Shown: one piece after another, positions 14,501 through 23,500 of the stretch
Layout of the letters: each line of letters opens with the position of its first letter
Position numbering within the stretch: the first letter of the stretch is position 1
Made by a program: the position numbers
Virus record (IMG/VR): IMGVR_UViG_2541047938_000006
DNA length: 64,000 nt
From: a virus
Taxonomy: Duplodnaviria; Heunggongvirae; Uroviricota; Caudoviricetes
Strand: one strand, 5' to 3'

Positions 14501-17500
14501 GGGTGACTCAAGTACTTCAACCAGCTTCTTTTTCAACTGTTCACGTACCGTCGAGCCCAGCTTTCGCCATTCCTTTAGTGCCCGCTCGTCAAAATCCAGA
14601 AAATACGCCATCAGAGTTCATCCAGCGTCACACGTACTGGCTTAGGATTACGAAGCCGTTCTTTCACTATCTCCACAAGTTCAGCATCTTCATCACTCAG
14701 GAGTGTCTGTTTGAACGGCAAGCGTTCATTGTCAGCGATATACTCGAGCATGAGACGAAGCGCTTCAGAAGGAGTTACACCCATTTTTTCAAGCGCGGCG
14801 TAAGAACGCGCTTTAAGTTCATCGTCAATACGCAGGTTAATGCTACCCATGTCTTACACCTCTTGTAATTACAAATGTCATTACAAGTATCGCACTACAA
14901 CATGCTTAGGGCAAGTCACGAAGGAAGTCAGAAAGTAGTCGTAAGAACGGTGATCACTGTCCGCTTTGTGCCAGGAGCAGCCATTGCTAAGTCCATCCTG
15001 TATTGTGCAGGTCAGCTCGTTTTTAAAGAGTCCGGCCATCATCTTACTGGTACAGACACCATATACTTTGTGACGGTCAGGCTACATATGCACAACTCAA
15101 CTTATTCATCTATTTTTTGCTTTAGCATGTCAGTGTTGCTTTCTCGTCGGCGGGTGAGCGGTGACCTGACCTGTCGATAAAGGAACGTAACACGTTTTAT
15201 GCAACACCCGCATGCGGCAGAAAATTATTGCCGAACGTTTACCCCTGTCAACAAGCTTTACTTTCTGAGGCGCGCCAGCCCGCGAGGAAAACAATCTGAA
15301 CATCAAACAATTAATGACACAAGAAATACGATTAAAGATTTTTTTGTGCATGCCGATAGTGCTTTTTTAAAAGGAGAAATCTATGTCTGTCACAATTCAG
15401 GGAAATACCTCAACCGTTATTTCAAACAACTCCGCCCCGGAAGGAACATCAGAAATAGCCAAAATCACAAGACAAATTCAGGTGCTGACTGAAAAGCTTG
15501 GGAAAATCTCATCGGAAGAGGGGATGACGACACAGCAGAAAAAAGAAATGGCTGCATTGGTACAGAAGCAAATTGAAAGCCTCTGGGCTCAACTGGAGCA
15601 GTTGTTAAGGCAGCAGGCAGAGAAAAAGAATGAAGACGCGACAGTTCAGCCTGATAAAAAAGAAGAGAAAAAAGACGATACAAATACCGCTGGCACCATT
15701 GATATTTACGTCTAAGTGACAGCCGTATTGTGGCCCTCATCGGGCCACTTTTCGCCATCAGCCTTTTCTTTAAAGACATATTATCTTTGTATCATTTCTG
15801 ATAGTTAACATTACAAGATATAAGTAATGGACGCACTCCCAATTAGTCTATTTAAATCGCCACGAGTTTAACTGACAACCCATGATCAATTATGAATTGC
15901 AACTATTTCTGTAGTCACTTTTGTGGGGACAGTCCACAAAACTGCCAACTTCCGCTTCTTGCTCTTAGCGGACATTAGCATAGGCTATTTACCATAACGC
16001 CTCATTACGCGCACCGCCCAGACTGACTCAGCGCGTTTCTGGCATATCCCCGGTAAAACAAGTAACAAACCACCCGAAAATGAACACCAGAAACGCGACT
16101 TAAGAATCTACCCTATGAATGGATATGCACTCAACCGAATCGATCTTGGTTTCAATCTTTTTTATCGGGATCAGGCTTCTTTTTAGGTAACTTCGGGGGC
16201 TTAACTTGCTGATGACTTTGCGTTCGGCGCGTAAGCCAGGGATGGTCAGCTTTAGGTTTAACATAGTATTTTGAGCGTAAATCAATACGGGCATTATCCA
16301 CTCGTTCATGGACACTCTTTTCATCATCCAGTGGTATAGGCTCCGGGCCATCAACATACTTTTCCCAGCCCAGCGCTTTCCCGTCATACAGAACGTTAAT
16401 TTCACCGTCAAAGTTCTCGCATACAGTAACAACCGAATGCCTAAGTCGATATCCCCGGCCCTCACTGCGTACCTGAAACGCACTGCTTTTGTACTGGAAA
16501 GTGAGATTTTTAGACAGAACGCGCTTCGCCTGTAGGCTGAAGATATAACCCAGTTCCTCTTCAGAATGGTGCACATCAAGATGAGCATTATCAGTAGTAC
16601 GAGGCGACGTAGCGAACCGGTTGTTATAGGCTTCAATAAAGGTCGGCAACCATGCATTTGCTGTTTCAATATCACTGATATTCTGAAGCCGCATTTCTTT
16701 GACCAGCCTGTCCTGTAGTGTCTGATTGGCGCGCTCTACCCGCCCTTTTGCCTGCGGGCTGTTGGCATGGATTGGCTCGATGCCCAGTGTCTTTATCGCA
16801 CGAGTGAACTGGGTCAGCTCACCTTCCCGCTCTGGGTTATTTACCCTGAATATACTGTGTCTATCAGAGTAGAGAGCGAGCGGTACGCCATGATCATTAA
16901 GGTAACCCCGGAGGGTTTCCATGTAAGCCCGGGTTGTTTCAGCAGGCACAAAACGCAACGCCATCAACGCACTGGTGGCATCATCAATGAAAACGATCAG
17001 TGTACATCTGGGACCTCGATTTTCAAACCAGTCATGAGGTGAGCCATCAATCTGGATCAGTTCACCGTAAGATGGTCGTCGCATGCGGCGTTGATATATA
17101 CGGGCAATTTTACGACGGCGTTCACGCCATAACCCCTCTTCTATCATCCACTTTCTGAGAGTTTCAACGGATAAAGATAAACCGTGTATCTCGCGCAATT
17201 TTTCGCACGCAAACGTAGGTCCAAAATCAGCGTAACGGCCTTTGAGGAGTGAAATTACTGTTGCTCTGAATTCAGTAGAAAAGGAATTATTAGGACGCTT
17301 TCCACGTCGGTGGGAAACCAGACCAGAAGGCCCTTCATTTCTATACCGTTGCACCAGACGTTTAACCTGCCGAATAGAAATGCCAATGCGTGCCGCAGCT
17401 TGTTCCTGAATAATCTGAAGTCGGTGGAGTTCCTTATGACTCATCGTAACAGTCTCTTTGATCATGAAAAATCCCCCAGAGAATTGTCTGGGGACATTTT

Positions 17501-20500: not shown

Positions 20501-23500
20501 CCATACGCTTAAGTGACAACCCCGCTGCAACGCCCTCTGTTATCAATTTTCTGGTGACGTTTGGCGGTATCAGTTTTACTCCGTGACTGCTCTGCCGCCC
20601 TTTTTAAAGTGAATTTTGTGATGTGGTGAATGCGGCTGAGCGCACGCGGAACAGTTAAAACCAAAAACAGTGTTATGGGTGGATTCTCTGTATCCGGCGT
20701 TAATTGTTAACTGGTTAACGTCACCTGGAGGCACCAGGCACTGCATCACAAAATTCATTGTTGAGGACGCGATAATGAAAACGTTATTACCAAACGTTAA
20801 TACGCCTGAAGGTTGTTTTGAAATTGGTGTCACTATCAGTAACCCAGTATTTACTGAAGATGCCATTAACAAGAGAAAACAAGAACGGGAGCTATTAAAT
20901 AAAATATGCATTGTTTCAATGCTGGCTCGTTTACGTCTGATGCCAAAAGGATGTGCACAATGAATTCAGCATTTGTGCTTGTTCTGACAGTTTTTCTTGT
21001 TTCCGGAGAGCCAGTTGATATTGCAGTCAGTGTTCACAGGACAATGCAGGAGTGTATGACTGCAGCAACCGAACAGAAAATTCCCGGTAACTGTTACCCG
21101 GTCGATAAAGTTATTCACCAGGATAATATCGAAATCCCGGCAGGTCTTTAAAACAGTTCCGTAATAAATATCCGGTTTCATTCTTATATGCCAGCAATGG
21201 CAGGGATTTGTTCATCCTTAAATCTGTCATGAGGTTAAAACAAATGAGTAAAGTCTTTATTTGCGCCGCTATTCCTGACGAACTGGCAACAAGGGAAGAA
21301 GGCGCTGTGGCTGTAGCCACAGCCATTGAAGCTGGCGACGAACGCCGTGCTCGAGCAAAATTTCACTGGCAATTCCTGGAACATTATCCGGCTGCTCAGG
21401 ACTGCGCTTATAAATTTATTGTCTGCGAGGATAAACCTGGCATACCCCGCCCTGCCCTCGATTCATGGGATGCTGAATATATGCAGGAAAACCGCTGGGA
21501 TGAGGAGTCTGCTTCTTTTGTCCCGGTTGAGACTGAATCCGATCCGATGAACGTCACTTTTGACAAGCTGGCCCCTGAAGTACAGAACGCTGTCATGGTT
21601 AAGTTCGACACATGTGAAAACATCACCGTTGATATGGTTATTAGCGCACAGGAATTGTTGCAGGAAGACATGGCAACATTCGACGGACATATCGTTGAAG
21701 CGTTGATGAAAATGCCAGAAGTTAACGCCATGTATCCGGAGCTTAAGTTGCACGCCATTGGGTGGGTTAAGCATAAATGTATTCCTGGTGCTAAATGGCC
21801 CGAAATTCAGGCAGAGATGCGCATCTGGAAAAAACGTCGCGAAGGTGAACGCAAGGAAACCGGAAAATACACGTCTGTTGTTGATCTCGCCCGCGCCAGA
21901 GCCAATCAACAGTACACTGAAAATTCAACAGGAAAAATCAGCCCGGTCATTGCTGCCATTCATCGCGAATACAAGCAGACATGGAAAACACTGGATGACG
22001 AACTGGCCTACGCTCTCTGGCCTAGTGATGTGGATGCCGGAAACATTGACGGCAGCATCCATCGCTGGGCAAAAAAAGAAGTTATCGACAACGACCGCGA
22101 AGACTGGAAGCGTATCTCGGCATCAATGCGCAAACAGCCTGATGCCCTTCGCTACGACCGCCAAACTATTTTTGGCCTTGTCCGTGAGCGTCCGATCGAC
22201 ATTCACAAAGATCCCGTAGCACTGAACAAATATATCTGCGAATACCTGACGACAAAGGGCGTGTTTGAGAATGAAGAAACAGACCTGGGCACTGTTGATG
22301 TTCTCCAGTCATCAGAAACACAAACTGATGCAGTGGAAACTGAGGTATCTGATATCCCAAAAAATGAAACCGCGCCGGAAGCTGAACCATCTGTAGAGCG
22401 TGAGGGGCCGTTCTATTTCCTCTTCGCAGATAAGGACGGAGAAAAATACGGTCGCGCAAACAAACTCTCTGGTCTGGATAAGGCACTGGCTGCTGGCGCC
22501 ACTGAAATCACAAAAGAAGAATATTTTGCCCGAAAAAATGGCACATACACGGGCTTACCGCAAAATGTAGATACCGCTGAAGATTCAGAACAACCAGAGC
22601 CGATAAAAGTTACCGCTGACGAAGTAAACAAAATTATGCAGGCAGCCAATATCAGCCAGCCTGACGCCGATAAGTTGCTTGCTGCATCACGTGGTGAATT
22701 TGTTGAAGGGATTAGTGACCCGAATGATCCGAAATGGGTTAAGGGGCTCCAGACCCGCGATTCTGTGAACCAGAACCAGCATGAATCGGAACGGAACTAC
22801 CAAAAAGCGGAACAAAACAGTCCAAATGCGTTACAAAACGAGCCAGAAACGAAACAGCCTGAACCAGTAGCGCAACAGGAAGTGGAAAAAGTCTGCACCG
22901 CCTGCGGTCAGACCGGCGGCGGCAACTGCCCTGATTGTGGCGCGGTGATGGGCGACGCAACATACCAGGAAATATTCGATGGAGAGAATCAGCCTGAAGT
23001 TCAGGAAGATGATCCGGAGGAAATGGAAGGCGCTGAACATCCACACAAGGAGAACACTGGCGGCAATCAGCATCACAATAGCGATAATGAAACTGGCGAA
23101 ACGGCAGATCACCCAATTAAGGTGAACGGTCATCACGAAATCACATCCACCAGCAGGACGTGTGACCATCTAATGATCGACCTTGAAACCATGGGAAAAA
23201 ATCCTGATGCCCCGATCATCTCAATAGGTGCAATATTTTTCGATCCGCAAACCGGAGATATGGGACCGGAATTTAGTAAGACTATCGATCTGGAAACTGC
23301 TGGCGGAGTCATTGATCGGGACACCATTAAATGGTGGCTTAAGCAATCACGCGAAGCGCAATCTGCCATTATGACCGATGAAATCCCGTTAGATGATGCA
23401 CTGTTACAATTGCGAGAATTTATCGACGAAAACTCCGGTGAATTTTTTGTTCAGGTTTGGGGAAATGGAGCCAACTTCGACAACACGATTTTGCGCCGTT

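What the first reader, a model, noticed from the sequence alone, without database searches (positions are those of the whole stretch)
15716..20604. dicF-dicB-ydfD retained but no recognisable dicA/dicC repressor genes; a transposase occupies the immunity region
DicF sRNA and DicB are cell-division inhibitors that are kept silent by DicA in the Qin prophage. Between flxA and dicF this window instead has a 437-aa DDE transposase, about 1.6 kb with no convincing ORFs, and three minus-strand early-region remnants; no XRE-type repressor is evident. How dicBF is kept off here, or whether its promoter is also lost, is unexplained.
Basis: partly seen in the sequence, partly recalled or inferred. Interest (0 to 1): 0.5.

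Follow-up and report, generated by a model that had tools for sequence, protein, structure and literature searches.

The report
Deletion removed dicBF repressor and promoter
In this E. coli cryptic prophage, one clean 2.6-kb deletion removed the DicA/DicC repressor genes together with the only known promoter of the dicF-dicB cell-division inhibitors, so these genes are most likely silent leftovers and no hidden control system is needed to explain them.

Summary
DicF (20549-20600), dicB and ydfD are intact, and no dicA/dicC or other XRE/Cro-type gene occurs in 15.7-20.6 kb or anywhere else in the window.

Compared with a 99.9%-identical Qin prophage (E. coli 537-20), the window has a clean 2,613-bp deletion at 20197|20198 with a 2-bp TA microhomology. 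It removes 239 codons of the O-like replication gene, ydaT, dicC, dicA, the dicA-ydfA spacer where the literature places dicBp, ydfA, ydfB and nearly all of ydfC. Published K-12 work found that DicF is made only by processing the dicBp transcript. dicF-dicB-ydfD are therefore most likely promoterless.

The transposase does not occupy the immunity region. It belongs to a 3.27-kb IS1202-group transposon that carries relBE-ydfV-flxA, sits inside a hok/sok locus, and is also present in dicA+ strains.

This is ordinary prophage decay and already explained. One thing is unexplained. The same left breakpoint is joined to five different right ends in other genomes, and the window's own junction occurs on two haplotypes. 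All ten breakpoints examined follow a TA. Every dicA-removing deletion seen here also removes dicBp. No mechanism for the recurrence was established.

The parts
13629..13880 (-). rem. It encodes the antirepressor of DicA and is intact here although its target is deleted.
   Evidence: Annotated as rem in the 99.97%-identical strain 537-20. Function from PMC10448788.
14097..14252 (-). hokD coding sequence, separated from its own 5' regulatory region by the transposon below.
14266..17539 (.). 3,274-bp IS1202-group (ISNCY) transposon carrying relE, relB, ydfV and flxA. It is flanked by the 15-bp direct repeat ATAGCCTGCTTCTCC (14251-14265 and 17540-17554) and has imperfect terminal inverted repeats (18/25).
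   Evidence: The block is absent from the Qin-like locus L010, where the two flanks are contiguous. Repeats found.
16152..17465 (-). 437-aa transposase ORF of that transposon. PGAP splits it into a 'partial ISNCY transposase' plus ydfW.
   Evidence: Pfam HTH_32, HTH_29 and HTH_28 are above their cut-offs; rve_3 scores 24.4 bits, just below its cut-off of 26.5. Annotation. The same 437-aa ORF occurs in dicA+ loci L011, L014 and L015.
17539..17710 (-). hok/sok 5' regulatory RNA element, orphaned from hokD by the transposon.
   Evidence: Rfam RF01794, 104.1 bits, E=1.5e-22. Contiguous with hok in L010.
18100..18869 (-). Two decayed early genes: a frameshifted hypothetical gene (18100-18521) and a DUF7167 gene with an internal stop (18687-18869).
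   Evidence: PGAP pseudogene calls in 537-20, transferred with an offset of +9999.
19132..19488 (-). Class I SAM-dependent methyltransferase gene (118 aa).
19485..19907 (-). DUF977 gene (140 aa).
   Evidence: Pfam DUF977, E=5e-29.
19948..20196 (-). C-terminal 82 codons plus stop codon of the O-like replication gene. The N-terminal 239 codons are deleted.
   Evidence: tblastn: residues 240-321 of 321, 100% identical.
20196..20198 (.). Deletion scar, CCAGTTA|CCCGCG. 2,613 bp are missing relative to 537-20, with a 2-bp TA microhomology. This is the recurrent left breakpoint 'L'.
   Evidence: Pairwise BLAST and junction sequences.
20196..20207 (+). Last four codons of ydfC (TAC CCG CGT TAG). This is all that remains of ydfABC.
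20411..20600 (+). Region corresponding to the 190-nt RNase III product that contains DicF. DicF proper is 20549-20600, ending in its terminator hairpin and T run.
   Evidence: Rfam hit. The 190-nt and 53-nt species are described in PMC10448788. The start at 20411 is inferred from those lengths.
20775..20963 (+). dicB (62 aa; S11P relative to K-12).
   Evidence: The same allele occurs in a dicA+ contig, L006.
20960..21151 (+). ydfD, the lysis protein gene (63 aa).
21244..23715 (+). Intact 823-aa exonuclease gene (truncated to ydfE in K-12). It contains the recurrent breakpoints R4 and R3 that other genomes use.

Best explanation
The segment is the early region of a Qin-type cryptic prophage integrated next to rspB. 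It has lost its immunity module through one simple deletion.

**Shown**
- Relative to a Qin copy that is 99.97% identical on the left and 99.4% on the right, exactly 2,613 bp are missing at window 20197|20198.
- The join runs through a shared TA.
- The missing DNA holds the first 239 codons of the O-like gene, ydaT, dicC, dicA, the dicA-ydfA spacer, ydfA, ydfB and all but four codons of ydfC.

**From the literature**
- dicBp and its DicA operators lie in the dicA-ydfA spacer.
- dicBp is the only promoter found for ydfABC-dicF-dicB-ydfD in K-12.
- DicF arises only through RNase III and RNase E processing of that transcript.
- Loss of DicA alone derepresses dicBp 22-fold, and dicA behaves as an essential gene in K-12.

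**Inferred**
- Here dicF, dicB and ydfD sit downstream of antisense, minus-strand gene remnants with no promoter. They are off because they are not transcribed, not because they are repressed.
- The deletion was tolerated because it took the repressor and the promoter together.

The transposase is unrelated to this event. It belongs to an IS1202-group transposon carrying relBE-ydfV-flxA that inserted into the hokD/sok locus.
For: - **The deletion.** Pairwise BLAST against 537-20 maps window 10000-20197 to L001 1-10198 (3 mismatches) and window 20196-26000 to L001 12810-18614.
- **No repressor left.** tblastn for DicA, DicC, YdaT and YdfABC found nothing in 64 kb. No XRE/Cro Pfam family matched 20 ORFs of the segment.
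- **Promoter position.** In 537-20 a TTGACC-17-TAATCT motif lies at L001 12182-12210, between dicA and ydfA and inside the deleted interval (my reading of the sequence). PMC10448788 places dicBp upstream of ydfA, reports no internal promoter, reports DicF by processing only, and reports 22-fold derepression on dicA deletion.
- **Essentiality.** dicA is listed as essential but variably present: absent from 24 of 63 strains in PMC5992433, and noted in PMC11481867.
- **No new promoter.** The promoter scan found no plus-strand sigma-70-like site between 19342 and 21300. The region as a whole has no more sites than shuffled sequence, 6 against 6.9.
- **All deletion variants agree.** Every independent deletion that removes dicA in other genomes (classes A-F) also removes dicBp or more.
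- **The transposase is elsewhere.** It is present in dicA+ strains, and its transposon boundaries are defined.
- **Source.** The window is 100% identical to GCA_000461255.1 KE702357.1 over the 12.2 kb compared.
Against: - No expression data exist for this strain, so silence is inferred.
- An old study (Cam et al. 1988, cited in PMC10448788) proposed a second promoter upstream of dicB. If real, it is retained here.
- dicF, dicB and ydfD show no decay. dicB has one substitution that dicA+ strains also carry. This could mean the deletion is recent or that the genes are still used.
- In the only other lineage with this junction (Res13 pig isolates), dicB is interrupted by IS3. This could reflect either neutrality or selection against residual expression.
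- The consensus promoter scan is crude and covers only sigma-70-type sites.
Confidence: 0.85

Rival explanations
1. dicF and/or dicB are still expressed without DicA control. Transcription would come from a weak internal promoter upstream of dicB, or from read-through or spurious transcription across the new junction. The strain would tolerate or exploit low constitutive levels.
For: - Cam et al. 1988 proposed a promoter upstream of dicB (reported in PMC10448788).
- dicF, dicB and ydfD are undamaged.
- IS3 has knocked out dicB in the sister lineage that shares the junction.
Against: - Primer extension and Northern blots in K-12 found no promoter inside the operon.
- No promoter-like site lies on the plus strand in the 1.4 kb upstream of dicB.
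- The DicF terminator lies between the junction and dicB.
Confidence: 0.12
2. A divergent, unrecognised repressor is encoded in 15.7-20.6 kb and keeps dicBF silent.
For: None found. Short ORFs without family matches exist (for example the 72-aa ORF at 17800-18018 and the 111-aa ORF at 20211-20546).
Against: - No HTH_3, Cro or CI match in any ORF of at least 40 aa.
- tblastn with DicA and DicC was negative.
- The whole segment is collinear, at 99.97% identity, with strains in which dicA does this job.
- The operators and the promoter a repressor would act on are themselves deleted.
Confidence: 0.01
3. The transposase (or its element) destroyed or replaced the immunity region.
For: - It lies between flxA and dicF.
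- The K-12 deletion that created ydfW|ydfX has one end inside this transposase gene.
Against: - The transposon ends at 17539, 2.66 kb from the deletion scar.
- It has its own 15-bp target duplication in a hok/sok locus.
- It coexists with intact dicC-dicA-ydfABC in many genomes.
Confidence: 0.02
4. On the origin of the scar: the 2,613-bp deletion is not a one-off replication slip. It is the product of a site-preferring process that repeatedly uses breakpoint L. One candidate is an IS3-family element once inserted at L and then removed with variable amounts of flanking DNA (the insertion-deletion-excision pathway, stimulated by IEE). Another is an unknown enzyme that cuts and rejoins at TA.
For: - L is joined to five different right ends in different genomes.
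- L|R1 lies on two haplotypes that differ 10 nt from the junction and for kilobases on both sides, and each matches an intact relative.
- R3 is also the left end of the K-12 ydfE|IS2 deletion.
- R2 coincides with an IS3 target duplication.
- All 10 verified breakpoints follow TA, and 8 of 20 adjacent half-sites read NCC (p about 5e-5, post hoc).
- IS3 with IEE makes scarless deletions with one fixed end and at most 6 bp of homology (PMC8860574; bioRxiv 2023.06.07.543989).
Against: - No complete genome has IS3 or IS2 at L.
- IS5 in strain E94 is in ydaT, not at L.
- All 29 metagenome contigs carrying the 25-mer left of L are intact.
- Neither the stem between the ends of the deleted segment nor the hairpin at L stands out from controls.
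- The motif statistics are post hoc on ten sites.
Confidence: 0.4

Closest known systems
Qin cryptic prophage dicAC-dicBF locus of E. coli K-12 (dicC, dicA, dicBp, ydfABC, dicF, dicB, ydfD)
   Same: - Same chromosomal site next to rspB.
- Same DicF sequence.
- DicB identical at 61/62 residues and YdfD at 63/63.
- Same rem, hokD, relBE, ydfV and flxA on the left.
   Different: - This window lacks dicC, dicA, dicBp and ydfABC.
- K-12 keeps these but has lost other parts: the right third of the transposon, the methyltransferase gene, DUF977, the O-like gene and part of ydaT, and it has ydfE fused to an IS2 fragment.
- The window keeps the methyltransferase gene, DUF977, a full exonuclease gene, xis and int.
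Full-length Qin-type prophage of E. coli 537-20, ATCC 8739, E. coli C and others
   Same: 99.97% and 99.4% identical on the two sides of the scar, and collinear over 16 kb.
   Different: Those genomes carry the 2,613-bp O'-ydaT-dicC-dicA-ydfABC segment that is missing here.
Conditionally essential prophage repressors (dicA, racR, cohE) that are variably present among strains
   Same: The repressor is dispensable once the toxic genes it controls cannot be expressed. dicA is absent from 24 of 63 strains in PMC5992433.
   Different: Here the toxic genes are physically retained and only their promoter is gone. In most dicA-negative strains the whole locus is absent (not examined here).
IS3-family plus IEE insertion-deletion-excision events (Kusumoto 2011; Kanai 2022, PMC8860574)
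   Same: Nested deletions with one fixed end, 2-3 bp of junction homology, and no IS left behind. A partial IS2 remnant sits at a shared breakpoint in K-12.
   Different: No IS was found at the fixed end in any of 5,426 complete genomes. The presence of iee was not tested. The consistent TA at breakpoints is not a described feature of that pathway, as far as I know.

Membership tests
Qin-type dicBF locus under DicA/DicC control | DicF sRNA | tested here: met
   Rfam RF00039, 76.7 bits, full length, 20549-20600.
Qin-type dicBF locus under DicA/DicC control | dicB and ydfD immediately downstream of dicF | tested here: met
   Pfam DicB E=3.7e-39. tblastn 98.4% and 100% identity.
Qin-type dicBF locus under DicA/DicC control | Divergent dicA (HTH_3, cI-like) and dicC (P22_Cro) genes upstream | tested here: not met
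   tblastn negative over 64 kb. No such Pfam family in the segment's ORFs. The genes lie in the 2,613 bp missing here.
Qin-type dicBF locus under DicA/DicC control | dicBp promoter with operators upstream of ydfA, and ydfABC as the leader genes | tested here: not met
   The interval L001 10199-12809, which contains the dicA-ydfA spacer and ydfABC, is absent. Only the last four codons of ydfC remain.
Qin-type dicBF locus under DicA/DicC control | Integration next to rspB, with xis and int at the right end | tested here: met
   Collinear with 537-20 through the exonuclease gene, xis, int and rspB.
Lambdoid immunity region (cI/Cro-type switch) within 15.7-20.6 kb | Any XRE/cI-type repressor and Cro-type partner with an operator-bearing spacer | tested here: not met
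IS1202-group (ISNCY) transposable element | DDE transposase with an N-terminal HTH and an rve-type core | tested here: inconclusive
   HTH_32, HTH_29 and HTH_28 are above their cut-offs. rve_3 scores 24.4 against a cut-off of 26.5 and rve scores 13.9. PGAP names it an ISNCY / IS1202-like ISEsa1 family transposase.
IS1202-group (ISNCY) transposable element | Terminal inverted repeats and a long target-site duplication | tested here: met
   Inverted repeats match at 18 of 25 positions. A 15-bp direct repeat flanks 14266-17539. The empty site is seen in L010.
IS3-family/IEE insertion-deletion-excision scar | One deletion end fixed, the other variable, and at most 6 bp of junction homology | tested here: met
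   L is joined to R0-R4 with 2-3 bp of homology.
IS3-family/IEE insertion-deletion-excision scar | An IS copy at the fixed end in some relative | tested here: not met
   Chimeric probes for L::IS3 and L::IS2, in both orientations, found no such genome among 5,426.
IS3-family/IEE insertion-deletion-excision scar | iee gene present in the lineages that carry the deletions | not tested
   No IEE sequence was to hand, and the window itself holds none that I recognised.

The most novel reading that the evidence does not exclude
Breakpoint L in the Qin O-like gene, and to a lesser degree R1 and R3, is a true site-preferring deletion hotspot. Some enzyme-driven process has repeatedly and independently produced scarless deletions that always cut after a TA. 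The process could be an IS3-family element that inserts at L and is then lost with flanking DNA, or an unrecognised TA-specific cut-and-join activity. Selection then keeps only the deletions that remove dicA together with dicBp or dicB. Under this reading the window's allele is one outcome of a recurrent 'disarming' route for a toxic prophage operon.
Probability: 0.35. Interest if true: 0.5.

Novelty: new variant of a known kind. Interest (0 to 1): 0.25.

Why it matters
For the question asked, it matters little. The missing repressor is explained by a deletion that also took the promoter, which is what a conditionally essential prophage repressor predicts. The strain is a natural promoterless-dicBF control that could be used to test whether DicF or DicB has any DicA-independent expression.

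Two by-products may interest specialists.
- The same nucleotide is reused in at least six deletion events, all at TA. This is a concrete, testable case of hotspot or scarless IS-mediated genome reduction in a cryptic prophage.
- The K-12 relBE-hokD arrangement appears to result from an IS1202-group transposon carrying relBE, ydfV and flxA that landed inside a hok/sok locus.

Tried and rejected
- **Hidden repressor.** tblastn with DicA and DicC, plus Pfam scans of 20 ORFs, found nothing.
- **Transposase as the cause.** Rejected because the transposon has its own boundaries and coexists with dicA.
- **IS3 at breakpoint L.** A chimeric probe found no genome.
- **IS2 at L.** The idea came from L resembling the IS2 left-end terminus CCAGTCTA and from the IS2 remnant in K-12 Qin. 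No genome was found.
- **IS5 at L.** L is a TTAG target, but the IS5 in strain E94 is in ydaT.
- **Integron-type GTTAGGC core at L.** Rejected on the sequence: the observed junctions do not fit a G|TT crossover.
- **IS200/IS605-type TTAC target.** Rejected because the C of TTAC comes from the right-hand partner.
- **Palindrome-assisted slippage.** Duplex energies between the ends of the deleted segments are not exceptional; 8-55% of control TA pairs do as well. The 12-bp quasi-palindrome at L folds no better than shuffled sequence, z=-0.35.
- **Chi sites.** None lies near the breakpoints.
- **Wider collections.** The GTDB species-representative scan found no match to the 25-mer left of L. All 29 metagenome contigs were intact at L.
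- **Cam et al. 1988 (PMC338298)** could not be read.

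
Full report
**What is there**

The window's first 35.7 kb is collinear with the Qin cryptic prophage and the adjacent rspB-ynf chromosome of E. coli. It is 100% identical, over the 12.2 kb compared, to scaffold KE702357.1 of assembly GCA_000461255.1.

- DicF is at 20549-20600 (Rfam 76.7 bits).
- dicB is at 20775-20963 and ydfD at 20960-21151.
- A 437-aa transposase ORF is at 16152-17465 on the minus strand.
- About 1.6 kb has no intact ORFs. It holds two PGAP-called pseudogenes and a hok/sok 5' RNA element at 17539-17710.
- Three minus-strand early-region pieces follow: a methyltransferase gene, DUF977 and a fragment of an O-like replication gene.

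No DicA, DicC, YdaT or YdfABC homologue exists anywhere in the 64 kb (tblastn, best E=0.03). No XRE, cI or Cro Pfam family matches any of 20 ORFs of at least 40 aa in the segment.

**What happened**

E. coli 537-20 carries a Qin copy that matches window 10000-20197 with 3 mismatches in 10,198 bp, and window 20196-26000 at 99.4%. Between these two blocks 537-20 has 2,613 extra bp. The window reads CCAGTTA|CCCGCG, whereas 537-20 reads CCAGTTA|GGCTCT on the left and ACATA|CCCGCG on the right. The join therefore runs through a 2-bp TA.

The annotation of 537-20 shows that the missing DNA holds:
- codons 1-239 of the 321-codon O-like gene;
- ydaT, dicC and dicA;
- the dicA-ydfA spacer;
- ydfA, ydfB and all but the last four codons of ydfC.

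In that spacer I read a TTGACC-17 nt-TAATCT motif at L001 12182-12210.

**Why dicBF needs no repressor here**

Ragunathan et al. 2023 (PMC10448788) report the following.
- dicBp lies upstream of ydfA, with DicA operators on both sides of dicA.
- The ydfABC-dicF-dicB-ydfD transcript starts there.
- Primer extension found no internal promoter.
- Deleting dicA derepresses dicBp 22-fold.

dicA is on the K-12 essential-gene list yet is absent from many strains (PMC5992433, PMC11481867).

In the window the promoter, the operators and the leader genes are gone along with the repressor. What now lies upstream of dicF is the antisense strand of the O', DUF977 and methyltransferase genes. The consensus scan finds no plus-strand promoter-like site from 19342 to 21300, and no excess of sites overall.

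The best-supported mechanism is therefore that dicF-dicB-ydfD are untranscribed relics. The deletion is shown. The promoter position rests on the literature plus my reading of the sequence. Silence is inferred.

Rem, the antirepressor of DicA, is still intact at 13629-13880 and is now without a target.

**The transposase**

The transposase is not in the immunity region. Relative to the Qin-like locus L010, window 14266-17539 is a 3,274-bp insertion.
- It is flanked by a 15-bp direct repeat (ATAGCCTGCTTCTCC).
- It ends in imperfect inverted repeats that match at 18 of 25 positions.
- It carries relE, relB, ydfV, flxA and the 437-aa ISNCY/IS1202-group transposase.
- It separates the hokD coding sequence (14097-14252) from its sok/5' region (17539-17710).

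The same element is present in strains that retain dicC-dicA-ydfABC. K-12 keeps only its left part. The K-12 gene ydfW is the last 49 codons of the transposase, because a K-12-specific deletion joins window position 16336 to ydaT.

**How common the allele is**

- A 200-nt probe across the scar is matched end to end in only 6 of 5,426 complete E. coli genomes. These are one set of pig isolates (Res13), in which dicB is additionally split by IS3.
- A 120-nt probe across the intact site is matched in 2,538 genomes. This count includes related O genes in other prophages.
- All 29 metagenome contigs containing the 25-mer left of the scar are intact.

**An unexplained regularity**

The left breakpoint L (…GGCAGTCCAGTTA|) is reused exactly with different right ends.

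| Right end | Location | Genomes |
|---|---|---|
| R0 | 31 nt upstream of the ydfA ATG, downstream of dicBp | MB06232 |
| R1 | End of ydfC | The window and the 6 Res13 genomes |
| R2 | dicB codon 23, the position of the IS3 target duplication in Res13 | PSJ-12, 23CRST024 |
| R4 | Within the exonuclease gene | PCP06173 |
| R3 | Within the exonuclease gene | 43 genomes |

Further observations:
- The window's flanks match the 537-20 haplotype on both sides.
- The Res13 flanks match a different haplotype on both sides. The first difference is only 10 nt from the junction, and intact contigs (L034, L010) share that haplotype. L|R1 therefore probably arose twice.
- R3 is also the left end of the K-12 deletion that fuses ydfE to an internal point of IS2.
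- Two deletions that do not use L also break after TA. These are class E in L016 plus four complete genomes, and the K-12 ydfW|ydfX junction.
- In total, 10 of 10 verified breakpoints follow TA, against a background TA frequency of 5.1%.
- 8 of 20 half-sites next to the TA read NCC, against a background of 7.5%. The binomial probability is 5e-5, but the motif was chosen post hoc.
- Every class that removes dicA also removes dicBp, or dicB and dicF as well. This fits selection against loss of the repressor alone.

**Attempts to explain the hotspot**

IS3-family elements with the IS-excision enhancer produce scarless deletions with one fixed end and at most 6 bp of homology, sometimes leaving partial IS copies (PMC8860574; bioRxiv 2023.06.07.543989). 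This resembles the pattern here, including the IS2 stump in K-12.

However, the direct tests did not support it.
- Chimeric probes found no complete genome with IS3 or IS2 at L.
- IS5 in strain E94 is in ydaT.
- Palindrome-assisted slippage is not supported either.

The hotspot is real in the data but has no established mechanism.

**Verdict**

The finding is a correct observation with an ordinary explanation. A single deletion in a decaying prophage removed the repressor, the operators and the promoter together. It is a new allele of a well-known locus, not a new kind of system. The recurrent TA-anchored breakpoints and the relBE-carrying IS1202-group transposon are the only points of wider interest.

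Noticed in passing
window 14251-17554: relE, relB, ydfV, flxA and the 437-aa ISNCY/IS1202-group transposase form one 3,274-bp unit. It has a 15-bp target duplication and terminal inverted repeats matching at 18 of 25 positions. It is inserted between the hokD coding sequence and its sok/5' regulatory region. The K-12 relBE-hokD ('relBEF') arrangement therefore looks like transposon cargo landed in a hok/sok locus.
   Followed up: partly
window 20197; L001 10198, 12258, 12811, 13455, 14348, 14624: The exact left breakpoint of the deletion is reused with five different right ends in other E. coli genomes. The window's own junction occurs on two haplotypes. All ten breakpoints examined, including two K-12 deletions, fall right after a TA, often followed by NCC. 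No mechanism was found.
   Followed up: partly
window 13629-13880 (-): rem, which encodes the antirepressor that inactivates DicA, is intact although dicA is deleted. It is an orphan regulator.
   Followed up: no
window 35721-64000: Collinearity with strain 537-20 ends at 35720, at the ynfG/ynfF position. From there the window holds a second prophage (Ant antirepressors, IbrB-like protein, PAPS reductase, LPD38 protein) found at this site in only 19 complete genomes. The Rfam sRNA-Xcc1 hit at 36036-36124 lies at its edge.
   Followed up: partly
L002 6749-8006 (Res13 pig isolates): In the only other lineage with the window's junction, dicB is interrupted by IS3 with a 3-bp ACC duplication. This is exactly the position that serves as the right breakpoint (R2) of the deletion in strains PSJ-12 and 23CRST024.
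   Followed up: partly
window 20612-20752 (+): Sub-threshold Rfam match to STnc100 (34 bits against a gathering score of 47) in the dicF-dicB spacer.
   Followed up: no
L051 6164-6878 (K-12 MG1655): K-12 ydfE ends exactly at breakpoint R3 and is fused to an internal point of IS2. The IS2 right end then abuts a 5'-truncated intQ. This is a partial-IS structure of the kind reported for IS3/IEE-mediated deletions.
   Followed up: partly
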